A DNA stretch of 64,000 nt from Ignavibacteriota bacterium (GCA_963702445.1 CAVPCZ010000012.1:193199-257198); one strand, 5' to 3'. Counted from the stretch's first letter, positions 20,097 through 38,156 are shown. Translations and numbers: made by a program. Notes: a model not told the origin generated them from the letters alone.

Positions 20097-20350
20097 TTCA
20101 GAACCCGGACGAGATCAGGGTTATCCGTGGCTATGGCGTCCACCGGACAGTCTTCGGCCGCTTCACGCATGTACTCCTCTTCTTCCGCTGTTTGCGGCTG
20201 GCGGCTGACAAAGTACCTGTTCGACGATTTCTCAAAATCGAAATTGTCCGGCGCAATGGAGGCGCAGTAGGCGCATCCGTCGCACTCTTCGGTGGTAAAG
20301 AATTTGCCCGAGACGTTTTGCGGCAGCCGTCGTGTCGGTTCGGCGCTCAT
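20093..20350 (-). CDS. Small single-cluster ferredoxin
   Basis: CDGCAYCASIAP ... DCPVDAI pattern. The ATG at 20350 overlaps the haem-lyase stop by ATGA (the ORF-track start at 20365 is also possible). Confidence 0.6.
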   Translation of the reverse strand: MSAEPTRRLPQNVSGKFFTTEECDGCAYCASIAPDNFDFEKSSNRYFVSRQPQTAEEEEYMREAAEDCPVDAIATDNPDLVRVLK

Positions 20351-22581
20351 TGTTTCTCCCTCCATCGTTTCACTATTGCCAGGACAAAGCCCGTCATCAT
20401 CAACACCGTTCCACCCCAGAGGAGGTTGATAAACGGTTTCACACTCGCTTCCACCATCAATATCTCCGGGCTCGGGGTCCCGCCGCCGGCCTGCGTGAGG
20501 CCGAGCACGATGCTCGAGGACGTCGAACCCATGCCCGCGTTCACCCTGAGCAGTCGCACCTCCCCGCCCAGCAGCCGTGAGGGAAGTGCCTCCTGCGCCG
20601 GCGTTCCATCGGCCGCGTAGGTCATCAGCGGGGCCAGCTGTTCCCGTTCATTATCCTTCTGCACGTCGATCACCGCGGCGATGCGCATACCTCCCGCCCC
20701 CATTGCCGCACCCGGGGTCCCGTGGGAACCCATATCGAACCGGTTGAAGGTGATCTGTGCTCCGCCCGCTTCCGACGCGACGCCCTTCACCAGGTTGAGT
20801 TCGACCGTCCGGCCTCCCTCCCTGGGAGGCTCAAGAGACATCGGGGAGATATAGAAATCCCTGAAGGCAAAGGACGAGATGTCCGGATTCCTCATGATCC
20901 CCTGTGAGCCCGCCTCAAACATGACCGGGGACAGCGTGAAGACCTTCCCGTTTCCCTCCGCCCGGACACGGAACACATACTTGTCGTCCGCCGTGACCGA
21001 AAACCCTTCATACGTCAGCGTGTGTCCGAGAGCCGGCACGGGTTGTTCCCGGGGGAGCTGGAACTGCTCCGTCGAACTGTACTTCCCCGTGGAAACAACG
21101 CCGAGCAGAAAGAGTGCGAGACCCATATGGGCCACTTTGCCGCCGTGCAGCAGGATGCCGCCTTTGATGTTGGTGAGCACGATATCCACGTTGACGAACA
21201 GCGCAAACACGGCCGTGAAGACCAGTGCCGCAGTGGAACCCTCGCGCATCCCGGCGACATAGAGAATAAGGGTCACCGCAAACGCCGCGATGAGAGCCCG
21301 GAGGGATTGGCGCGAGGTGAGCCGGACATCCTGTTCTTCCCATTGCGTGTACAGGCTGATGCCGATGAGCAGCGCCATCATGATGACAAGGGGAAGATTG
21401 GTGGCGTCGTAGAATGCGGGTTCGACCCGGGTGGTGGAGAATATCGGCAGGCTGGTCCCGAAAAGGATGACAACCGCGCTGAGCAGGAGGGCAACCGCCC
21501 CGGCGGCAAGCGCAGTTTCGCGCGTGAGCCAGCCGCTTGTTGCACCGTCCGCCGCGAGGGATTTCCATCGGAAGGCCAGCAGGCCGAATCCGGAAAGTGC
21601 AATAAGAGAGAGAAATGCGAGCAGGAGCCAGTACACGGCGGAACCGGGATCGGTGAAGGCATGCACGGAGGCGTCGCCGAGTATGCCGCTGCGGGTCAGA
21701 AACGTGCTATAGATCACCAGGAAGAACGAGACAATGGCGAGTGTCACGTTTGTGCGCGGGTATCTGCCGGTACGGCGTTCCACAAGCATCGTGTGCACCA
21801 GCGCGATGCCTGTGAGCCAGGGAATGAGCGAGGAGTTTTCCACCGGATCCCAGCCCCAGTAACCGCCCCACCCCAGAACACCATACGCCCAGTATGCGCC
21901 GAGCATGATGCCCAGTCCGAGCACAGTCACCGCGAACAGGATCCAGGGCAGACCTTGCTGTGAAAGAAGTGTCCGGCGACCCGTCCAGAGGCCCGCCAGC
22001 GCCTGGCTGAAGGGCGCGGCCATTGCGGCAAATCCCAGAAAGAGGACCGGGGGATGAATCACCATCCAGAAATTCTGCAGGAGAGGATTCAGCCCGCGTC
22101 CGTCGGGGGGGATCTGTCCGGGAGGAATCTGCGGCCACATCTCCCACACCGGGCGGAAGGGGGACTTCGCAACGACAATGAGCAGAAGCATCGACTGGAC
22201 AAACAGAAACACGGTCATCACCCCGGATTCGCTGCCATGCTTCCGCCCGTACGAAGCGAGCAGGAGAGCAATCAGTGCCGAGCAGAGCGCCCAGAAGAGG
22301 AAGCTTCCCTCCTGGCCTGCATAAAAGCTGGACAGGAGGAAGTGCAGCGGCAGCGTGCTGTCGCTGTACCCGTAGACGTAGCCGTTGGTGAAGTCATTTC
22401 GCAAAAGGAGCGCCGTCAACAACGCCGATGCAAGCAGGATGAGAAGTGAACTGAGGTACAGGAGGGCTCGCGGTTGCGAAAGACGACCCCCTTTTGTGGA
22501 GGCAGCGCGAAGGTACCCGAGCGCTGAGAAGAGGGATGCAAAGAGCGCAAGGATGATGAACCAGTGTCCAAGAACAGTCAT
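20347..22581 (-). CDS. CcmF/NrfE-family cytochrome c haem lyase (744 aa, polytopic)
   Basis: WWD domain GAYWAYGVLGWGGYWGWDPVENSSLIPWL matches the CcmF/NrfE signature (WAYxELGWGGxWxWDPVEN). Many TM segments and a CcmF-like C-terminal domain. Confidence 0.85.
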   Translation of the reverse strand: MTVLGHWFIILALFASLFSALGYLRAASTKGGRLSQPRALLYLSSLLILLASALLTALLLRNDFTNGYVYGYSDSTLPLHFLLSSFYAGQEGSFLFWALCSALIALLLASYGRKHGSESGVMTVFLFVQSMLLLIVVAKSPFRPVWEMWPQIPPGQIPPDGRGLNPLLQNFWMVIHPPVLFLGFAAMAAPFSQALAGLWTGRRTLLSQQGLPWILFAVTVLGLGIMLGAYWAYGVLGWGGYWGWDPVENSSLIPWLTGIALVHTMLVERRTGRYPRTNVTLAIVSFFLVIYSTFLTRSGILGDASVHAFTDPGSAVYWLLLAFLSLIALSGFGLLAFRWKSLAADGATSGWLTRETALAAGAVALLLSAVVILFGTSLPIFSTTRVEPAFYDATNLPLVIMMALLIGISLYTQWEEQDVRLTSRQSLRALIAAFAVTLILYVAGMREGSTAALVFTAVFALFVNVDIVLTNIKGGILLHGGKVAHMGLALFLLGVVSTGKYSSTEQFQLPREQPVPALGHTLTYEGFSVTADDKYVFRVRAEGNGKVFTLSPVMFEAGSQGIMRNPDISSFAFRDFYISPMSLEPPREGGRTVELNLVKGVASEAGGAQITFNRFDMGSHGTPGAAMGAGGMRIAAVIDVQKDNEREQLAPLMTYAADGTPAQEALPSRLLGGEVRLLRVNAGMGSTSSSIVLGLTQAGGGTPSPEILMVEASVKPFINLLWGGTVLMMTGFVLAIVKRWREKQ

Positions 22582-22616: not shown

Positions 22617-22631
22617 TCAACATGCGTGCCA
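22617..22631 (-). promoter_or_regulatory. Sigma-54-type -24/-12 promoter candidate upstream of the haem-lyase gene
   Basis: The minus strand reads TGGCACGCATGTTGA. The -24 TGGCACG is perfect with correct N4 spacing, and the -12 is TTGA instead of TTGC. A GGAG sits 7 nt before the ATG at 22581. Confidence 0.5.
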
Positions 22632-22710
22632 TGGAAATCCCCTTGAAAACCACGAAAATCACGTTCTGGAAGCCGTTTTAAGGGTTTCCTATCGTGTAAG
22701 AACCAGGGTG

Positions 22711-22728
22711 TTTCCAATACCTGGGAAT
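22711..22728. promoter_or_regulatory. Inverted repeat TTTCC-N8-GGAAT, candidate enhancer (UAS) for the sigma-54 activator
   Basis: tttcc aatacctg ggaat, centred ~90 bp upstream of the -24 GG at 22629-22630. The same half-sites, spacing and distance occur at 35233-35250. Confidence 0.45.
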
Positions 22729-22743
22729 TGGTTTGCAGGAGTG

Positions 22744-22780
22744 CAAAAAAAGCTCCCGGCCCTTTTAGGGGGGGCCGGGA
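22744..22780 (-). terminator. Rho-independent terminator ending the cytochrome operon
   Basis: On the minus strand, CCCGGCCC-cccctaaaa-GGGCCGGG is followed by AGCTTTTTTTG. It lies 63 nt downstream of the lipoprotein cytochrome stop at 22843. Confidence 0.65.
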
Positions 22781-31857: not shown

Positions 31858-33993
31858 TTACACCTTCTCCTCTTTGGGTTCTTCAGAATGCTGCCGGCGT
31901 CTGTACGTCTCCAGCTCAAGAGGATGTTCCTCCTCCATCTCTTCTTCCGTCAGCGTACCCTTCCAGAACGCCAGGTTGATCGGGTAGGTATCGGGGTTGA
32001 AGATCACAAAATAGAAATGCCAGACGATGATGGCGAGTGTGGCGAGCCAGGCTTCATAATAGTGCACCGTACGTGCAACATCCCACCAGAGTTTCGTGAG
32101 AAGGCCCAGGAAGATGTTGTCGAACCAGAGAATGACCCCCGTCAGACCCATAACACCCGTTCCCCAGACCAGCGCCCAGTACTCGCTCTTTTCTATGTAG
32201 CTGAAACGGCCGAATTTGGGTTTGTCCGGTGAGATGCCGAAGTTGTACTTCAGGACATTCAGCGCGTCAAACAGATCCTGCCGCCGGGGCAGAAGGTCCC
32301 GGAGCAGTTCTTTGCCGCGGGGGACAAAGAAGAGATACCAGAGGTGGTAGAGACTCGCGGCAACCATGGCCACGGCGGCGATACGGTGCAGGATGCCCCG
32401 CAGTTCAAACATCCACGGACTGACACTGCGTATCGGCGCCACCCACCAGGCATCCGGATACCGGAGGGCGAACCCCGTCAGGACGAGCGTGATAAAACTG
32501 ACGAGCAGTGTACCGTGCTGGATCCGTTCGCCGAGGGTCATGCGGAGATAGAGCCGGTGTGCGGTGTGTTTGCGGGGCAGTTCCCCCCGGCGGTACTGGA
32601 GCTGCCGCCGGGACTTCTTGACAAAGTCCAGCAGATTATGGACAAACATGCCGCCGATCAGCACCACAATCAATACGATATATCCGTTTGAAACGAAATA
32701 TAGCACGCCGTCATGTCCGGATGTGGCGATGACGTGCACCGAACCACGCGTGAAATTCGTGTTCGCGCCGGGATGGCAGGTCCCGCACGTCCTGGTCAGG
32801 TTGTCGGGGTGAATGCGCGAAGAGGGATCCGTTGACGGTTTGATATCATGCACGCCATGGCAGCTTGCACAGTTGGCGACCTCCACCGATCCTGCACGCT
32901 GGGCAAGACCGTGGAAGCTGTCCTCAAAACTCTGGAAGCGGTCACCCGCCAACCCGTACTTTTGCGTCAGCTTAACGGAGCCATGACAGGGAGAGCACAC
33001 CTGCGAGGAGACGTTTGCCGCCGCGACCGGTGAACGGGCGTCTTGCGGCGAAAGAATATTGTGTTCACCGTGACAGTCCGTGCAGGTGGGCGATGCCGTT
33101 ACGCCTCCGGCGAGCGCCTGGCCATGAATGCTTCCGGCGTATTGTGCGCGCGTTTCGCCGTGGCATTTCCCACAGGTACCGGCGATGTTCCTCTTGGCGA
33201 CGGAGGAGGTCGGGTTCGACCCCTTCTTCATGGTGTGGCTGCCGTGACAATCCGTGCAGGCGGCCGCGGAATCGTTGCCCGCCTTGACGGCCTGCCCGTG
33301 CACGCTCTTTTCGTAGCTGGAGACGAAGCCCGCGGAAGGACCGACCCGTTCGCGCACTTCGGGTTTGTCCAGGTGGCAGCTCAGGCACATTCTGGCCTGG
33401 TGTCCGTGGGCCGTGGTGGAACTGCTGTCCCGGGCGGACTGTACTGCATGCTCGCCGTGACAGTCGATGCAGCTGGGCGCACCTTTGACCCCCCGGACGA
33501 GCGCAAGACCGTGGTCAGACTGAAGGAACCGGACGTTGATATCTCCGTGGCATTTTGCACAAATGCCCTCGGCAAACGCAGCCCGGTGCACCGGCTCCTG
33601 GTCCGTCACCCTTTTGACGGAATGCGCCGTGTGACAATCCGCGCACGAGGCGGCGGGACGGTTTCCTTTGACGCTCCGCCCGTGCACGCTCTTTGCAAAA
33701 TCGCTGAACTGATCACCCTCGTGACAGTTCAGGCATTTCACCGGAGTGATCTTCGCCTTATGAGGAAGTTCGGAAGGTTTGAACCCTTCATGACATCCCA
33801 CGCAGCCCAGCGCACTGTGGGCTGAGGAGGCGAACCCTTTGCCTTCGACAAACAGGGAGATCGTCCTCCCCTTCTTCGTCATCGACAAGGAGGCGTCGCT
33901 GTGGCACATGAGGCAATCTTCATCAGATTGCGCCGGCACAAAGGGGGGAAACAGCAATCCCCCCAGTATCAGGGTCATGACGTGTTTCAGCAC
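31858..33993 (-). CDS. Fusion of a 13-haem periplasmic c-type cytochrome with a HydC/FdnI-like cytochrome b membrane domain (CbcL-like)
   Basis: 13 CxxCH motifs are followed by about five TM helices with conserved His. Start taken at GTG 33993 (GGAGAGAAGC upstream, signal peptide LKHVMTLILGGLLFPPFVPAQS); ATG 33978 is possible. ATG 34146 lies upstream of the predicted promoter, so I reject it. Confidence 0.85.
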   Translation of the reverse strand: MLKHVMTLILGGLLFPPFVPAQSDEDCLMCHSDASLSMTKKGRTISLFVEGKGFASSAHSALGCVGCHEGFKPSELPHKAKITPVKCLNCHEGDQFSDFAKSVHGRSVKGNRPAASCADCHTAHSVKRVTDQEPVHRAAFAEGICAKCHGDINVRFLQSDHGLALVRGVKGAPSCIDCHGEHAVQSARDSSSTTAHGHQARMCLSCHLDKPEVRERVGPSAGFVSSYEKSVHGQAVKAGNDSAAACTDCHGSHTMKKGSNPTSSVAKRNIAGTCGKCHGETRAQYAGSIHGQALAGGVTASPTCTDCHGEHNILSPQDARSPVAAANVSSQVCSPCHGSVKLTQKYGLAGDRFQSFEDSFHGLAQRAGSVEVANCASCHGVHDIKPSTDPSSRIHPDNLTRTCGTCHPGANTNFTRGSVHVIATSGHDGVLYFVSNGYIVLIVVLIGGMFVHNLLDFVKKSRRQLQYRRGELPRKHTAHRLYLRMTLGERIQHGTLLVSFITLVLTGFALRYPDAWWVAPIRSVSPWMFELRGILHRIAAVAMVAASLYHLWYLFFVPRGKELLRDLLPRRQDLFDALNVLKYNFGISPDKPKFGRFSYIEKSEYWALVWGTGVMGLTGVILWFDNIFLGLLTKLWWDVARTVHYYEAWLATLAIIVWHFYFVIFNPDTYPINLAFWKGTLTEEEMEEEHPLELETYRRRQHSEEPKEEKV

Positions 33994-34119
33994 GCTTCTC
34001 TCCGGAATCAGACTACCAATGGATATAAGGGGGTCAATCAACATGCCAAGGTTCGATCGTTGAAATTGTTGAAATTTGCCACATCTTCGATCGACACTCA
34101 CTGTCTTTTTTCCCAAAAA

Positions 34120-34136
34120 TGCGATATTGGTGCCGG
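34120..34136 (-). promoter_or_regulatory. Sigma-54-type -24/-12 promoter candidate upstream of the CbcL-like gene
   Basis: The minus strand reads CCGGCACCAATATCGCA, with GG-N10-GC spacing exact (GGCAC ... TCGCA against the consensus TGGCACG-N4-TTGCW). It lies 38 nt after the receiver-gene stop. Confidence 0.45.
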
Positions 34137-34173
34137 AGATTTGCACACCTGGGAAAAGGGTGTCGGGGTGGGA

Positions 34174-34656
34174 TTAGGAAAGGCCTGCGAGGAGATCTTC
34201 CACCCTTTTCGAGATTTGTGCGATCTCAAAGGGCTTATAAAAGACGGAATCTACATGCTCACGGATGGCCCGGTCGAGATTCACCTCCCTGGAATTATAG
34301 ACATACAGGAGGATAATCGGCAGTGTGTGGTTGGCCCCCCGCAACCCATCCAGCCGCTCGATGAGCTTCTCCGAGGGAACCGCATCCACCATGACAAGGT
34401 TTGCGGAATAGTCCGCCGCAAGGCGGTCGAGCATTCCCAGATTCGTTGTCGTGATGACATTATACCTGTCCTGAAACAGCATGGAGAGACTGAAGCAGAA
34501 GTTCAGGTCAGGGCTGTACAGCAGGATCGTCTTCTTGTTTTCACCGACATCCGTATCGGGTGCCCGTGCGTCCTTCCGGTGTTCGGCTTCGCCGTGGTGT
34601 GTTTTCACCGTATATCCTCGGTTCGTGTCACCGCAGATGGAGTTCCTTTTCGACAT
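34174..34656 (-). CDS. Single-domain receiver (CheY-like) protein with a degenerate acidic pocket
   Basis: KKTILLYSPD ... ANLVMVDA ... PIILLYVY ... YKPF follows the REC beta1/beta3/beta4/beta5 pattern, but SPD replaces DD and Tyr replaces the beta4 Ser/Thr. Alternative GTG start at 34608 (GAGGA 6 nt upstream) would remove the 29-nt overlap with uspA. Confidence 0.6.
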   Translation of the reverse strand: MSKRNSICGDTNRGYTVKTHHGEAEHRKDARAPDTDVGENKKTILLYSPDLNFCFSLSMLFQDRYNVITTTNLGMLDRLAADYSANLVMVDAVPSEKLIERLDGLRGANHTLPIILLYVYNSREVNLDRAIREHVDSVFYKPFEIAQISKRVEDLLAGLS

Positions 34657-35104
34657 CCTCTTTTTGAAGGATGTTTTCGCGGAACGGGTGCGGCTTGACG
34701 GTCAACACGGGGATTCCGGAAGATCGGACGATCCGTTCGGCGACGCTGCCCAGAAGCATGTGGCGCAACCCCGTCCGGCCATGCGTGGCAATCACAATCA
34801 GATCGATTCCCTCCTGCTCGGCGAACCGGCGGATCTCCTCCGCGGCTTCCCCTTTTTTCACGACCAGTGCAATACGTGTTTCCGCCGGCACATGGGCATG
34901 CGCGAATTCTTCGAGACTTCTTCTTGCCTCTTCCTCATTCCTCGGATGACCCTCTCTTCCGAGGAACCCTTCCCGGCCATCGACCACATGAAGCAGGAAC
35001 AGGCGGGATGTATACAGGGTGCCGAAGGACGTGGCGTACTCCACGGCTGCCAGCGAGAAGTCAGAAAGGTCGGTGGTGACGAGTATTTTCTTCAGGAAGA
35101 CCAT
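34628..35104 (-). CDS. Universal stress protein (UspA family)
   Basis: KKILVTTDLSDFS ... LFLLHVV ... IDLIVIATHGRTGLRHMLLGSVAERIVRSSGIPVLTV (ATP-binding G-2x-G-9x-G(S/T) type motif). Confidence 0.88.
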   Translation of the reverse strand: MVFLKKILVTTDLSDFSLAAVEYATSFGTLYTSRLFLLHVVDGREGFLGREGHPRNEEEARRSLEEFAHAHVPAETRIALVVKKGEAAEEIRRFAEQEGIDLIVIATHGRTGLRHMLLGSVAERIVRSSGIPVLTVKPHPFRENILQKEDVEKELHLR

Positions 35105-35137
35105 CGTTATGACTCCCGTTGTCCTTACGGGAGTTTT

Positions 35138-35152
35138 TCAAGAGTTGTGCCA
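35138..35152 (-). promoter_or_regulatory. Sigma-54-type -24/-12 promoter candidate upstream of uspA
   Basis: The minus strand reads TGGCACAACTCTTGA: TGGCAC, correct spacing, and a -12 of TTGA as at 22617-22631. It lies ~35 nt upstream of the uspA ATG, with GGGAG as a possible SD. Confidence 0.5.
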
Positions 35153-35232
35153 ACAACGTGGGGGGGGTGCCGGGGCGGAGAGGCCGAAAAATCCCCGTTT
35201 TTGGCTGAAGAAGGGTACTCCCGGCACCCGGG

Positions 35233-35250
35233 TTTCCGAATTGTGGGAAA
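35233..35250. promoter_or_regulatory. Inverted repeat TTTCC-N8-GGAAA, candidate enhancer (UAS) for the adjacent sigma-54 activator
   Basis: tttcc gaattgtg ggaaa, centred ~91 bp upstream of the -24 GG at 35150-35151 and 17 nt downstream of the activator gene stop. Matches the repeat at 22711-22728. Confidence 0.45.
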
Positions 35251-35266
35251 GCAGGCTATGAAATTC

Positions 35267-36631
35267 CTAACCCTGCGAAGGGATATTCAGCTCTTCGATC
35301 TTCCGGTAGAGGGATGAGAGGCTGATACGCAGGGCCTTGGCGGTCAACTCCTTGTTGTACTGGTTGGACCGGAGGACGTGACTGATATACTGCCGCTCGA
35401 ATTCATCCACCGCGTCTTTCATCGACCGGCGCGCATCGAATGCATAAACCGCATCGGTGCGCTGATCGAACAGCGTCGGCAGCTCTCTCTTGGTCAGGAT
35501 AGTCCCCTCCGAAAAGATCACCGCCCGTTCGATGACGTTTTCCAACTCCCGGATCTCACCCTTCCAGGTGTGCGCCATCAGGCATTTCATGACCTCGTTG
35601 TCCACGCCGCGGACATCCTTGTTCATTTCCTTGGCATGCTTTGCCACGAAATGATTCACGAGCATCGGAATATCATCGACACGTTCGGAGAGAGAGGGGA
35701 GCGTCAGCTCGACGATATTCAACCGGTAGAACAGATCCTCCCGGTAGCGGCCCTCTTCCACTTCCTTTGCGAGGTTCTTGTTTGTGGATGCGATAATCCG
35801 CACATCCACGGACATGGGCATTGAGGTGCCGACGGGGGTAATCTCTTTCAGTTCAATCGCCCTCAACAACTTCACCTGCAAGTGAAGGGGGATTTCGCTC
35901 ACCTCATCGAGGAAGAGACTCCCGCCGTCCGCGGCCTTGAAGAACCCCTCCTTGTCCATGGAGGCACCGGTGAAGGCACCGCGTTTATGCCCGAACAGTT
36001 CGCTCTCGAACAGATTTTCCACGATCGCGCCGCAGTTGATCGGGACAAACGCCCGGCCGGCACGATGGCTGCTGAAGTGGATCGCCCGGGCGACCAGTTC
36101 CTTCCCCGTCCCGCTTTTCCCGTTGATAAGCACTGTTCCGTCGGTGACCGCCACCTTTTTGATGGTATCGAACACCCGCTGCATGGCCGGACTCTGTCCG
36201 ACGATCTCGTCGAAGTTGTACTGCCGGTGCAGCTCACCCCGCAACAGCCGGTTTTCCAGACTCACGCGCCGGGTCGCCAGGAGGCGGTTCACCTTCACGA
36301 GCAGTTCATCGAACTCGACCGGTTTGAGGATGTAGTCGACGGCACCCTTGCGCAGTGCGGCGATTGCGGTGTCGATGGACCCGTATGCCGTGATGATCAT
36401 CACCAGCGTTTCGGGGCTAACGGCGGCGACCTGTTCCAGCAGCTCGATCCCTTTCATCTCGGGCATCTCGAGATCCGTGATCACCAGATCGAAGGACTGC
36501 TCCCGGATCAGGTCGAGGGCGAGCTTTCCGTTTGCCGCTTCGCGGACCGTGAAACCCTCTTTGGTCAGGACGAAGGAGAGGGATTCGCGAATGATCTCTT
36601 CATCATCCACGATCAGAATCGTATCAGCCAT
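35267..36631 (-). CDS. Sigma-54-dependent response regulator (NtrC family: REC + AAA+ + Fis-type HTH)
   Basis: REC: ILIVDDEE ... DLVITDLEMPEMKG. AAA+: INGKSGTGKE, ESELFGHKRGAFTGA (GAFTGA loop), and an RxDLYYRL-like EDLFYRLN. C-terminal HTH: NKELTAKALRISLSSLYRKI. The ATG at 36631 follows the kinase stop. Confidence 0.92.
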   Translation of the reverse strand: MADTILIVDDEEIIRESLSFVLTKEGFTVREAANGKLALDLIREQSFDLVITDLEMPEMKGIELLEQVAAVSPETLVMIITAYGSIDTAIAALRKGAVDYILKPVEFDELLVKVNRLLATRRVSLENRLLRGELHRQYNFDEIVGQSPAMQRVFDTIKKVAVTDGTVLINGKSGTGKELVARAIHFSSHRAGRAFVPINCGAIVENLFESELFGHKRGAFTGASMDKEGFFKAADGGSLFLDEVSEIPLHLQVKLLRAIELKEITPVGTSMPMSVDVRIIASTNKNLAKEVEEGRYREDLFYRLNIVELTLPSLSERVDDIPMLVNHFVAKHAKEMNKDVRGVDNEVMKCLMAHTWKGEIRELENVIERAVIFSEGTILTKRELPTLFDQRTDAVYAFDARRSMKDAVDEFERQYISHVLRSNQYNKELTAKALRISLSSLYRKIEELNIPSQG

Positions 36632-38048
36632 GCCGGTATTCCTTGGGATTGAGGGGGAGGGTGACGCAGAAGGAGGTTCCTTTCCCCCGCTCGCTGCGCA
36701 CGGTGATGTCACCGCGGAAACTCCGGACAATGCCGTAACTCACCCAGAGCCCCAGCCCGGTTCCCTCCCCGACGCGTTTTGTCGTGAAAAACGGCTCAAA
36801 CACTTTCGCCAGATGTTCGCTGGTGATGCCGCTGCCGTCATCGGTAATGCGGACCCGGATCCACTCATCATCACGTTCGAAGTCGGTCGTGATCGTTCCG
36901 CGCTTCCCCTGCAGCGCATCGACCGCATTCAGAAGAATGTTGATAAACACCTGGGCGATCTGATCGGGGACGAGGGAAAGGAGAGGAATCTGGTGCCGCA
37001 CGTGGGTATAGAAGGTCACCTCTTTCGCTTTCTTGCCCATCTTCACGATCTCGACGGAATCCGTCAGCAGTTTGACGATGTCCGTGGGCTGGATCTGGTA
37101 GTTGGAGGGCCGGGAAAAATCCACCAGATCACGGATGATCTTGGTGATCCTGTGCACCTGGGACTGGACCAGTCCGAGTTTGTCGCGCGCGAACTCGTCG
37201 TTGATCGTGCGTTGCAGCACCTGCACGATGGAAGAGATGGACGTAAGCGGGTTTCCCACTTCGTGGGCGATGCCCGCGGCGAGGGTCCCGATGCTCTCCA
37301 TCTTCTGGGAATGCATCAGCTGCTGTTCCAGGGCCTTTTGCTCGGTCACGTCGCGGTGTGAACCCAGATACCCCACCACCCGGCCGTCGCCTTCGATGAT
37401 CGGGGAGATGAGCAGCTGCGTATACAGGGGCTGGCCGTCCTTCCGGCGGTTTTCGATTTCGCCGTTCCAGACCTTCCCCGCGCTGATGGTGGACCAGACA
37501 CGCTCCCAGAACTCCTTCGCGTATTTCTTGCTGGATATGACGCTCGGATTGTTCCCGATCAGCTCTTCTTTCGCGTATCCGGTTGCGCGCTCGAACGCGG
37601 GATTGACATAAATCATCCGTCCCATCGCGTCGGTGATTTGAATCGGATTCACCGTGAAGTGCACCACGTTGGAAAACCGGAGGAGGTCCAGCTCTTTCTG
37701 TTTGGATTCAGAAATATCCCTTGCGGTGATGAACACCACCGTCCGGCCGTTTTCCTCGATCCGGCGGATGAACAGGAGTGCGTCCACCGGGTTTCCGGCG
37801 GACTGACGGAAACGCACTTCGCCTCCGGTGAAGCCGTTGCCGGAGGTGACGGATGAGAAGGCGGGGCGTGGGGAATCGGAGGTCAGCAGGGATGAAAACG
37901 GAATGGTCCCGTTAAGGACGACCGGAAGGCCGGTTACTTCCCGCGCCCTGCTGTTGCAGTCGATGAGCTTGAGGTCCTCGGACACTACGAAACACATGTC
38001 GGGGACCACATCCAACACCCGCTGGAGTATATTGAGAGGAACAGGCAT
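36624..38048 (-). CDS. Cytoplasmic PAS-domain sensor histidine kinase
   Basis: No TM segment and two PAS-like regions (one with the typical MIYVNPAFERATGYAKEELIG). H-box AAGIAHEVGNPL, N-box NILLNAVDA, G-boxes DDGSGI and GTGLGL. Confidence 0.9.
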   Translation of the reverse strand: MPVPLNILQRVLDVVPDMCFVVSEDLKLIDCNSRAREVTGLPVVLNGTIPFSSLLTSDSPRPAFSSVTSGNGFTGGEVRFRQSAGNPVDALLFIRRIEENGRTVVFITARDISESKQKELDLLRFSNVVHFTVNPIQITDAMGRMIYVNPAFERATGYAKEELIGNNPSVISSKKYAKEFWERVWSTISAGKVWNGEIENRRKDGQPLYTQLLISPIIEGDGRVVGYLGSHRDVTEQKALEQQLMHSQKMESIGTLAAGIAHEVGNPLTSISSIVQVLQRTINDEFARDKLGLVQSQVHRITKIIRDLVDFSRPSNYQIQPTDIVKLLTDSVEIVKMGKKAKEVTFYTHVRHQIPLLSLVPDQIAQVFINILLNAVDALQGKRGTITTDFERDDEWIRVRITDDGSGITSEHLAKVFEPFFTTKRVGEGTGLGLWVSYGIVRSFRGDITVRSERGKGTSFCVTLPLNPKEYRHG

Positions 38049-38156
38049 ACGGCAGAGTGATTCAATATACCAAATTGCCGGAGGATATTCAAAGACAGAG
38101 CCGCGGGAGAGAGCACGCTCCCCCCCGCGGCCCGGCGGGCGGCGGCAACTTCCGGA

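What the first reader, a model, noticed from the sequence alone, without database searches (positions are those of the whole stretch)
35138..35250. Sigma-54-like promoter plus an inverted repeat ~91 bp upstream, directly downstream of the sigma-54 activator gene
On the minus strand, TGGCACAACTCTTGA (35152-35138) fits the -24/-12 consensus TGGCACG-N4-TTGCW except for A in place of the final -12 C. It lies ~35 nt before the uspA ATG.

The inverted repeat TTTCC-gaattgtg-GGAAA (35233-35250) is centred ~91 bp upstream of the -24 GG. That distance is typical of bacterial enhancer-binding-protein sites. It lies only 17 nt after the stop of the NtrC-type activator gene.

This looks like the control point through which the PAS kinase and activator pair switches on the uspA/receiver unit, and possibly the cytochrome genes by read-through.
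Basis: partly seen in the sequence, partly recalled or inferred. Interest (0 to 1): 0.6.

Follow-up and report, generated by a model that had tools for sequence, protein, structure and literature searches.

The report
Conserved sigma-54 promoter with tandem enhancer sites
The flagged sequence is very probably a real sigma-54 promoter with two upstream activator-binding sites, one of three such units through which a kinase/activator pair appears to switch on a stress-protein gene, a multihaem-cytochrome operon and a haem-lyase gene in an uncultured Ignavibacteria-type bacterium. The design is a well-known one, seen here in a little-studied lineage.

Summary
Both observations are correct at the stated coordinates. 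TGGCACAACTCTTGA (35152..35138, minus strand) lies 33 nt before the usp ATG. The inverted repeat lies 91 bp upstream of the -24 GG.

Support is comparative only; no 5' end or binding was measured.
- In 28 orthologous loci (activator 67-96% identical) only these blocks are conserved. TTGA is invariant (2.00 bits), TGGCAC 1.90, the repeat 1.62, and the rest of the spacer 0.26-0.52.
- The "wrong" A at -12 is not a defect. It never varies here, and A is about as frequent as C at that position in this genome and phylum.
- The repeat is the proximal copy of a 16-bp palindrome, TTYSCA-N4-TGSRAA. A second copy 30 bp upstream overlaps the activator's stop codon.
- The same two-site-plus-promoter unit recurs before the CcmF-like gene (22747..22617) and, newly found, directly before the cytochrome operon (34155..34034). 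The cytochromes therefore do not depend on read-through.
- Genome-wide, only four tight pairs of such sites exist. All four sit 70-91 bp upstream of a -24/-12 motif.
- rpoN is present but carries two 1-nt indels in this assembly. Relatives and metagenome contigs lack them.

Verdict: a new member of a known kind.

The parts
35138..35152 (-). P1: sigma-54 type -24/-12 promoter TGGCACAACTCTTGA. The predicted start is near 35126, 22 nt before the usp ATG.
   Evidence: Sequence. TGGCAY-N5-TTGA sits at the equivalent place in all 28 aligned orthologous loci, with TTGA invariant. The start position is inferred from the usual 12-nt distance and was not measured.
35234..35249 (.). UAS-2, the proximal activator site TTCCCACAATTCGGAA. 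Its centre is 91 bp from the -24 GG.
   Evidence: It is conserved at 1.62 bits per column. It is the best hit in the whole 5.18-Mb genome for a matrix built from the orthologues, at 29.3 bits. Its distance to GG in orthologues clusters at 78-82, 90-93 and 98-100 bp.
35264..35279 (.). UAS-1, the distal activator site TTCGCAGGGTTAGGAA. It overlaps the last codons and the TAG stop of the activator gene. Its centre is 30 bp from UAS-2 and 121 bp from GG.
   Evidence: It has 1 mismatch to TTYSCA-N4-TGSRAA. It is present in 26 of 27 orthologous loci in which a promoter was found, mostly 29-31 bp from UAS-2. It is kept through a Ser-to-Leu codon change (TTCGCA to TTTGCA), and in L023 it survives as non-coding DNA.
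35187..35202 (-). A5-N6-T5 tract (AAAAACGGGGATTTTT) between the sites and the promoter. It may be an intrinsic bend or an architectural-protein site.
   Evidence: Only the T-run is moderately conserved, at 0.9-1.6 bits for 35190..35187. A similar AAAACGG...TTTTCG is at the same distance in P2. Its function is inferred.
35267..36631 (-). NtrC-family enhancer-binding protein (454 aa from the ATG at 36631): REC, AAA+ with GAFTGA, Fis-type HTH.
   Evidence: Pfam PF00072, PF00158 and PF02954. GAFTGA and Walker motifs were read. The ATG overlaps the kinase stop (ATGGCTGA). The best matches are AtoC/NtrC models, below their equivalog cut-offs, and Aquifex NtrC4/NtrC1 structures.
36624..38048 (-). Double-PAS histidine kinase, the presumed partner of the activator.
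   Evidence: Pfam PAS_8/PAS_9, HisKA and HATPase_c. A terminator-like hairpin (38133..38098) and a sigma-70-like promoter (38092..38064) precede it.
34628..35104 (-). usp (158 aa), the first gene behind P1.
   Evidence: Pfam PF00582, E = 3e-30. Metatranscriptome contigs of close relatives span usp and the next gene in one piece, for example 34436-35064.
34174..34656 (-). 160-aa divergent stand-alone receiver-like protein, the second gene behind P1.
   Evidence: There is no Pfam hit at E <= 0.001. Matches to receiver domains are weak: NCBIfam OmpR receiver part E = 1e-4 and PDB response regulators E = 0.05-0.3. It follows the activator in most of the 80 loci, with or without usp.
34034..34048 (-). 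P3: a second sigma-54 type promoter, TGGCATGTTGATTGA, directly before the CbcL-like multihaem cytochrome gene (starts at 33993 or 33978).
   Evidence: Sequence. TGGCAT-N5-TTGA (TTGG in one locus) lies 110-221 nt after the receiver-gene stop in 24 orthologous loci.
34110..34155 (.). Pair of activator sites of P3: TTCCCAGGTGTGCAAA (34155..34140) and ATCGCATTTTTGGGAA (34125..34110). Centres are 30 bp apart, 101 and 71 bp from GG.
   Evidence: The sites have 0 and 1 mismatch to the consensus. Both blocks are conserved in orthologues.
22617..22631 (-). P2: a third sigma-54 type promoter, TGGCACGCATGTTGA, 35 nt before the CcmF/NrfE-like gene (22581..20347).
   Evidence: It is conserved before the orthologous gene in five other genomes of the family.
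22712..22747 (.). Pair of activator sites of P2: TTTGCACTCCTGCAAA (22747..22732) and TTCCCAGGTATTGGAA (22727..22712). Centres are 20 bp apart, 110 and 90 bp from GG. The pair lies just after a terminator hairpin with a T-run (about 22778..22745).
   Evidence: The sites have 0 and 1 mismatch. The proximal site is the third-best genome-wide matrix hit. The proximal site is seen in the four relatives that could be read there; the distal site is evident only in the closer ones.

Best explanation
The stretch 35279..35138 (minus strand) is a complete sigma-54 control region.

Parts:
- RNA polymerase with sigma-54 binds TGGCAC-N5-TTGA (35152..35138) as a closed complex.
- The NtrC-family activator encoded just upstream binds two 16-bp palindromes of the type TTYSCA-N4-TGSRAA. 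These are UAS-1 (35279..35264, overlapping its own stop codon) and UAS-2 (35249..35234).
- The two sites are three helical turns apart. They lie 121 and 91 bp from the -24 GG.

Proposed sequence of events:
1. The double-PAS kinase phosphorylates the activator.
2. The activator assembles on the two sites and reaches the polymerase by DNA looping, perhaps helped by the A5/T5 tract near 35195.
3. ATP hydrolysis through its GAFTGA loop opens the promoter.
4. Transcription starts near 35126 and yields usp plus the receiver-like gene.

The same activator very probably also fires two sister units. P3 (34155..34034) precedes the quinol-dehydrogenase/porin-cytochrome operon. P2 (22747..22617) precedes a dedicated CcmF-like haem lyase. 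Together they form a small regulon for an extracellular-electron-transfer-type cytochrome chain.

Shown here: the sequences, their conservation, their recurrence, the spacing, and the presence of rpoN and of a GAFTGA activator. Inferred: who binds the sites, the signal, the start site, and dependence on RpoN.
For: 1. Promoter. The match is exact except for -12. It is present in every orthologous locus examined with the activator at least 67% identical. TTGA is invariant and TGGCAC nearly so, while the surrounding spacer is unconserved.

2. A at -12 is lineage-typical.
- In this genome, TGGCAY-N5-TTGN gives A 37, C 36, G 11, T 18. At control spacings N4, N6 and N7 the means are roughly A 10, C 14, G 4, T 12.
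- In 13 genomes of the family, TGGCAC-N5-TTGA occurs 178 times and TTGC 140 times.
- In 54 other genomes of the phylum the counts are 387 and 294.

3. Sites.
- UAS-2 is the top genome-wide hit of its matrix.
- Only four pairs of sites with at most 1 mismatch each lie 16-45 bp apart in 5.18 Mb, against about 0.15 expected from 159 such sites.
- All four pairs have a -24/-12 motif 70-91 bp downstream in the right orientation. Three of them are P1, P3 and P2 of this cluster.

4. Geometry.
- Site pairs are 20 or 30 bp apart.
- Distances from the sites to GG are 71, 90, 91, 101, 110 and 121 bp.
- In orthologues the proximal distance clusters at about 80, 91 and 99 bp.

5. DNA-level selection on UAS-1. 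It persists through a Ser/Leu change and, in one locus, as non-coding DNA.

6. Activator. It has REC, AAA+ with GAFTGA and HTH_8. Loci whose activator ends in ...ISLSSLYRK(I/L)EEL-N(I/V)P(S/L)QG carry the site. Loci with other recognition helices do not.

7. rpoN. It is present and intact in 11 of 12 relatives.

8. Expression. usp and the receiver gene lie on single metatranscriptome contigs of close relatives.
Against: - No 5' end, binding or rpoN dependence was measured.
- Metatranscriptome contigs of relatives also cover the spacer upstream of the predicted start (for example 34693-35247 and 35151-35393). Read-through from the activator gene, or DNA carry-over, therefore cannot be excluded and may contribute.
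- The canonical C at -12 is missing.
- The rpoN copy of this assembly is split by two 1-nt indels. If these are real, the system would be dead in this strain.
- The genome has about 18 sigma-54 activators, so assigning the sites to the adjacent one rests on adjacency and co-occurrence. Both are confounded by shared ancestry.
- The helical-phasing classes come from related, non-independent loci.
Confidence: 0.8

Rival explanations
1. The promoter is a real sigma-54 promoter, but the palindromes are bound by a different one of the roughly 18 enhancer-binding proteins. One candidate is the paralogue on contig C18, whose own upstream region carries similar sites. The adjacent activator would then act elsewhere.
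For: There are 18 strong PF00158 matches in the genome. Similar site pairs lie before a paralogous kinase/activator operon at C18:59411-59457.
Against: The sites sit immediately next to this activator gene in all close orthologues, and one site overlaps its stop codon. Site presence tracks this activator's HTH type. The C18 paralogue has a different recognition helix and a degenerate GAFTGA (GALQGV).
Confidence: 0.1
2. The inverted repeat acts as RNA: a 3' hairpin or terminator of the activator mRNA, not a protein-binding DNA site.
For: It lies 16 nt after the stop codon and can form a 5-bp stem.
Against: The predicted hairpin is weak (-4.9 kcal/mol) and has no following T-run. The arms never co-vary; they are simply invariant, while the loop varies. 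The same 16-mer recurs upstream of P2, after a genuine terminator, and upstream of P3. It keeps a fixed, helically phased distance to a -24/-12 motif.
Confidence: 0.03
3. TGGCAC-N5-TTGA is conserved but is not read by sigma-54. With no C at -12, it would be the operator of another factor, and usp would be transcribed from a housekeeping promoter or by read-through.
For: The -12 C of the published consensus TGGCAC-N5-TTGCW is absent. RNA contigs of relatives cover the spacer.
Against: No other conserved block that could serve as a -33/-7 or -35/-10 promoter exists between the sites and the ATG. The motif keeps the exact -24/-12 spacing and is over-represented only at that spacing. It co-occurs with enhancer-type sites 70-121 bp upstream and with a GAFTGA activator. 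The RpoN HTH (STISRV) and RpoN box (ARRTVAKYRE) are canonical.
Confidence: 0.05
4. It is a chance match with no function.
For: 5 of 100 shuffles of the window give two TGGCAC-N5-TTGM matches.
Against: The motif is invariant across 28 loci whose flanking spacer has diverged to near-random. The whole unit recurs three times in this cluster.
Confidence: 0.01

Closest known systems
NtrC at glnAp2 of enteric bacteria (two tandem dimer sites upstream of a sigma-54 promoter)
   Same: - A REC/AAA+/Fis-HTH activator with a GAFTGA loop.
- Two palindromic sites of about 16-17 bp, three helical turns apart, roughly 70-120 bp (here) upstream of a -24/-12 promoter.
- A partner histidine kinase gene in the same operon as the activator.
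The glnAp2 side of this comparison rests on my own knowledge of the system.
   Different: - The half-site is different (TTYSCA versus TGCACC).
- The sites lie closer to the promoter than at glnAp2.
- The -12 element is TTGA.
- The targets are a universal stress protein, a receiver protein, multihaem cytochromes and a haem lyase, not nitrogen assimilation.
- The protein scores below the NtrC and AtoC equivalog cut-offs.
AtoS/AtoC and the Aquifex aeolicus NtrC1/NtrC4 structures (best sequence matches)
   Same: These are the best matches: NCBIfam AtoC at 462 bits and AtoS at 268 bits, and PDB 4l4u/1ny5 at E = 1e-107 and 1e-101 over the full REC-AAA+-HTH length.
   Different: The scores are well below the curated equivalog cut-offs (714 and 646 bits), so this is not an AtoC/AtoS orthologue. 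The gene context is unrelated to acetoacetate metabolism.
RpoN-dependent control of electron-transfer components in Geobacter sulfurreducens (RpoN regulon, PilR-type activators)
   Same: Sigma-54 with enhancer-binding proteins governs genes for extracellular electron transfer in a metal-respiring bacterium. This rests on my own knowledge and was not checked in a paper here. The downstream genes here are CbcL-like, ImcH-like and porin-cytochrome types (earlier notes of this scan).
   Different: The phylum is different (Ignavibacteria-type). The activator and site are different. Here the regulator, its three promoters and a dedicated haem lyase are packaged in one 18-kb block.

Membership tests
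sigma-54 (-24/-12) promoter | GG at -24 within TGGCAC | tested here: met
   TGGCAC is at 35152..35147. It scores 1.90 bits per column over 28 orthologous loci.
sigma-54 (-24/-12) promoter | -12 element TTGC(W) exactly 5 nt after TGGCAC | tested here: inconclusive
   The spacing and TTG are met. The C at -12 is A. A is invariant in orthologues and about as common as C at this position in this genome and phylum. It therefore fits the lineage's own consensus but not the textbook one. Experimentally validated E. coli sigma-54 promoters that deviate at -12 are listed in PMC12316311.
sigma-54 (-24/-12) promoter | rpoN encoded in the genome | tested here: met
   PF04552 scores 188.7 bits at C20:131352-131825. 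The gene is split by two 1-nt indels in this assembly. It is intact (483-511 aa) in 11 of 12 relatives. Contigs of runs X8 and X10 lack both indels; those of X1 lack the first and do not cover the second.
sigma-54 (-24/-12) promoter | Transcription start about 12 nt downstream of the -12 element; activity requires RpoN and an activator | not testable with these tools
   Only unstranded metatranscriptome contigs of related strains were available. They show that usp is expressed but give no 5' end.
NtrC-family bacterial enhancer-binding protein | Receiver domain, AAA+ sigma-54 interaction domain with a GAFTGA loop, and a C-terminal Fis-type HTH | tested here: met
   PF00072, PF00158 (E = 8e-68), PF25601 and PF02954. 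...GHKRGAFTGA..., Walker A GKSGTGKE and Walker B LFLDE were read.
Enhancer (UAS) of an NtrC-type activator | Palindromic sites, usually in tandem, about 70-150 bp upstream of the promoter on a fixed helical face | tested here: met
   There are two 16-bp palindromes 30 bp apart, 91 and 121 bp from GG. The same layout occurs at P2 and P3. Distance classes in orthologues are about 80, 91 and 99 bp.
Enhancer (UAS) of an NtrC-type activator | Specific binding by the cognate activator | not testable with these tools
   The only support is adjacency, overlap with the activator's stop codon, and co-occurrence of site and HTH type.
AtoC / NtrC / ZraR equivalogs (NCBIfam) | Score above the curated equivalog cut-off | tested here: not met
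   AtoC 462 versus 714 bits, NtrC 397 versus 559, ZraR 392 versus 760. It is a family member, not an orthologue of any named regulator.

The most novel reading that the evidence does not exclude
Sigma-54 of the Ignavibacteria/Bacteroidota lineage may have a shifted or relaxed -12 specificity, with A at least as acceptable as the canonical C.

- In this regulon A is fixed at -12 in three promoters and in every orthologue examined.
- From my own knowledge of E. coli work, the -12 C helps keep the closed complex silent. A lineage that prefers TTGA might therefore set basal leakiness or activator dependence differently.
- This cluster would then be a self-contained sigma-54 switch, with sensor, activator, three promoters and a private haem lyase, for a whole extracellular-electron-transfer chain in a phylum where no such regulation has been described.
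Probability: 0.3. Interest if true: 0.6.

Novelty: new member of a known kind. Interest (0 to 1): 0.4.

Why it matters
- It gives a concrete, testable wiring diagram for how an uncultured Ignavibacteria-type bacterium turns on a CbcL/ImcH/porin-cytochrome electron-transfer chain. One two-component pair acts on three promoters with a defined 16-bp operator.
- It corrects gene-start and operon assumptions for the cytochrome genes, which have their own promoter.
- It shows that scans using the textbook TGGCAC-N5-TTGC motif would miss about half of the sigma-54 promoters in this lineage.

Tried and rejected
1. Mapping the start from public RNA data. Six metatranscriptome runs hold related sequence, but only as unstranded assembled contigs of strains 93-97% identical. 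Contig ends (35064, 35104 plus 8 nt, 35158, 35247) do not agree, so no start was obtained.

2. A 5'-UTR hairpin (35134..35127 pairing with 35119..35112, which covers the ribosome-binding site). It could silence read-through transcripts but not sigma-54 transcripts. It appears in only about 4 of the orthologues, with one apparent compensatory case, so it was not adopted.

3. The 10-bp inverted repeat GGGTGCCGGG/CCCGGCACCC (35165-35174 and 35220-35229). It is not conserved in orthologues and was dropped.

4. The GGCAC part is not conserved. Only TCGCA is, and that belongs to an activator site. The conserved promoter lies at 34048..34034.

5. A crude GC3-based coding/non-coding classifier, meant to sharpen the -12 base statistics. 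It misclassifies short genes such as usp, so only the coarse count is used.

6. The reversed-pattern control of the genome search. It is not comparable between TTGC and TTGA because their CpG content differs. I therefore rely on forward counts and spacing controls, not on the enrichment ratios.

7. Literature. No paper in the library mentions sigma-54 promoters of Ignavibacteria or a TTGA -12 element in Bacteroidota. Class-specific logos exist only in an online resource I could not read.

Full report
**Setting**

The window is C12:193199-257198 of a 5.18-Mb, 59% G+C genome. Its closest relatives are MAGs labelled Ignavibacteriota/Bacteroidota.

The relevant genes all lie on the minus strand:

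| Gene | Coordinates |
|---|---|
| Double-PAS histidine kinase | 38048..36624 |
| NtrC-family activator (REC, AAA+ with GAFTGA, Fis-type HTH) | 36631..35267 |
| usp | 35104..34628 |
| 160-aa divergent receiver-like protein | 34656..34174 |
| Ten cytochrome-chain genes | down to 22843 |
| CcmF-like gene | 22581..20347 |

- The activator most likely starts at the ATG 36631, which overlaps the kinase stop.
- The cytochrome chain comprises CbcL-like haem/cytochrome-b fusions, a NapC/NirT-like cytochrome, an unassigned 465-aa protein and MtrC-like multihaem proteins.
- A terminator follows at about 22778..22745, before the CcmF-like gene.

**The observation**

- TGGCACAACTCTTGA occupies 35152..35138, 33 nt before the usp ATG.
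- TTTCC-N8-GGAAA occupies 35250..35233. Its centre is 91 bp from the -24 GG, and it begins 16 nt after the activator's TAG.
- TGGCAC-N5-TTGM occurs twice in the window against 0.32 expected.

**Conservation**

A scan of one genome per species returned 80 loci with a related activator. The gene order activator, then usp (often present), then receiver-like gene is widespread.

Every locus whose activator is at least 67% identical, and in which the spacer could be read, carries TGGCAY-N5-TTGA after the activator stop.

In an alignment of 28 such spacers, only a few islands are conserved:

| Block | Mean information (bits per column, max 2) |
|---|---|
| TTGA | 2.00 (invariant) |
| TGGCAC | 1.90 |
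| 16-bp repeat | 1.62 |
| GAATT after the stop | 1.70 |
| All other spacer columns | 0.26-0.52 |

This is a classical phylogenetic footprint and excludes chance.

**The A at -12**

It is not a flaw.
- It never varies in the orthologues.
- In this genome TGGCAY-N5-TTGN gives A 37, C 36, G 11 and T 18. At spacings N4, N6 and N7 the means are about A 10, C 14, G 4 and T 12.
- In 13 genomes of the family, TGGCAC-N5-TTGA occurs 178 times and TTGC 140 times.
- In 54 further genomes of the phylum the counts are 387 and 294.
- The tool's reversed-pattern control is not comparable between the two patterns, because their CpG content differs. I claim only that A is at least as common as C. A crude own-genome count of non-coding hits gave C 23, A 18, T 12, G 4.
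- The RpoN HTH (STISRV) and RpoN box (ARRTVAKYRE) are canonical. No obvious residue change explains the preference.
- I found no paper describing it.

**The enhancer**

- A matrix built from the orthologous copies finds the P1 copy as the best hit in the whole genome, at 29.3 bits. The third-best hit lies 90 bp upstream of the window's other TGGCAC-N5-TTGA.
- A search for the degenerate palindrome finds 159 sites with at most 1 mismatch in 5.18 Mb. Only four pairs of such sites lie 16-45 bp apart, against about 0.15 expected. All four have a -24/-12 motif 70-91 bp downstream in the correct orientation.

Three of the four pairs are in this cluster:

| Unit | Distal site | Proximal site | Pair spacing (bp) | Distances to GG (bp) |
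|---|---|---|---|---|
| P1 | 35279..35264 | 35249..35234 | 30 | 121, 91 |
| P3 | 34155..34140 | 34125..34110 | 30 | 101, 71 |
| P2 | 22747..22732 | 22727..22712 | 20 | 110, 90 |

The fourth pair is at C16:78166/78197, before 4Fe-4S, cNMP-binding and FAD oxidoreductase genes. A weaker pair precedes a paralogous kinase/activator operon on C18.

Further points on the sites:
- The distal P1 site overlaps the activator's last codons and stop.
- It is kept in the orthologues although the encoded residue changes from Ser to Leu (TTCGCA to TTTGCA). In one locus it survives downstream of a shorter gene, which indicates selection on the DNA.
- The proximal-site-to-GG distance in orthologues falls into classes 78-82, 90-93 and 98-100 bp, with one locus at 85. 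These steps are about one helical turn.
- The arms never co-vary, and the predicted hairpin is weak (-4.9 kcal/mol) with no T-run. This is a protein-binding DNA site, not an RNA structure.

**Who binds the sites**

The adjacent activator is the obvious candidate. Close orthologues share the C-terminal ...ISLSSLYRK(I/L)EEL-N(I/V)P(S/L)QG and carry the sites. More distant homologues with other recognition helices do not. This co-occurrence is confounded by relatedness, and the genome holds about 18 activators. The assignment is therefore an inference.

**The cytochrome genes**

- That element is not conserved. Only its TCGCA is, and TCGCA is part of an activator site.
- The conserved promoter is TGGCATGTTGATTGA at 34048..34034. 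It is present in 24 orthologous loci together with both sites.
- The cytochrome operon therefore has its own promoter of the same class. Read-through from P1 remains possible, because no terminator separates the two.
- P2 and its proximal site are likewise conserved before the CcmF-like gene in other genera.

**rpoN**

The DNA-binding domain is found at C20:131352-131825, but the gene is split over two frames.
- Compared with the intact 511-aa gene of a congener (93% nt identity), this assembly lacks one base at about 130545 and has one extra base at about 131213. Both lie in short homopolymers.
- Eleven of twelve relatives have an intact 483-511-aa frame.
- Metagenome contigs carry the missing base (three runs, among them the probable source sample X1) and lack the extra base (X8 and X10; X1 does not cover it).
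- I read these as consensus errors, but this is not proven for the strain itself.

**Expression**

Metatranscriptome contigs of strains 93-97% identical show usp and the receiver gene on one contig (34436-35064). Other contigs cover the spacer upstream of the predicted start. They are unstranded assemblies and may contain DNA, so they neither map a start nor exclude read-through.

**Verdict**

It is a textbook-style sigma-54/enhancer unit, and so a new member of a known kind. Three features go beyond the textbook case: a lineage-typical TTGA at -12, a site that overlaps the regulator's own stop codon, and a compact three-promoter regulon for a multihaem electron-transfer chain.

Noticed in passing
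window 34067-34083 (minus strand); also C25:110466 and C16:78138 of the genome: A strongly conserved, partly palindromic block TGTGGCAAATTTCAACA (TGTKGC-N5-TCAACA) lies between the activator sites and the -24 element of P3, centred about 28 bp upstream of GG. It is conserved in about 20 orthologous loci. Its next-best genome hits also lie beside activator-type sites or TGGCAT-N5-TTGA motifs. It may be the site of a second regulator or of an architectural protein.
   Followed up: partly
genome contig C20:130374-131834 (locus L093): rpoN is split by a 1-nt deletion (about 130545) and a 1-nt insertion (about 131213) relative to the intact gene of a congener. Metagenome contigs from three runs lack the first indel and those from two of them lack the second. 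This suggests homopolymer consensus errors in this assembly, so other genes may be affected too.
   Followed up: yes
genome and phylum-wide: TGGCAC-N5-TTGA is at least as frequent as the canonical TGGCAC-N5-TTGC in this genome, in 13 genomes of its family and in 54 other genomes of the phylum. More distant homologous loci also show TTGT. Standard sigma-54 scans would under-call promoters here.
   Followed up: partly
genome C16:78166-78295: A fourth pair of activator-type sites (TTTGCACAATTGGGAA and TTCTCATCTCTGCGAA, 31 bp apart) lies 70 bp upstream of a weaker -24/-12 motif, TGGCATACCTTCTGT. It precedes genes for a 4Fe-4S protein, a cNMP-binding protein and an FAD/NAD oxidoreductase. These may be a further regulon member.
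   Followed up: partly
genome C18:59411-62545: Two activator-type sites 30 bp apart and a TGGCATGATTTGTGA motif precede a paralogous sensor kinase and an NtrC-type regulator. The kinase's extracytoplasmic part carries CxxCH-like motifs (CALCH). In the regulator the GAFTGA loop reads GALQGV. Cross-regulation between the two systems is possible.
   Followed up: no
window 38064-38133 (minus strand): A strong terminator-like hairpin (16 pairs) after the AdoHcy hydrolase gene is followed by TTGAAT-17-TATATT with an upstream TG, 16 nt before the kinase ATG. This is a plausible constitutive promoter for the kinase/activator operon, and no sigma-54 motif is present there.
   Followed up: no
window 35112-35134 (minus strand): An 8-bp hairpin, ACTCCCGT/ACGGGAGT, pairs the bases just upstream of the predicted start with the usp ribosome-binding site. 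It would exist only in read-through transcripts. It is conserved in only a few orthologues.
   Followed up: partly
window 34628-35104 (usp): The Usp protein carries G-x2-G-x9-G-S (GRTGLRHMLLGS), the ATP-binding signature of the UspFG/MJ0577 class (own knowledge of the motif). In more distant loci usp is absent, or it follows the receiver-like gene instead of preceding it.
   Followed up: no
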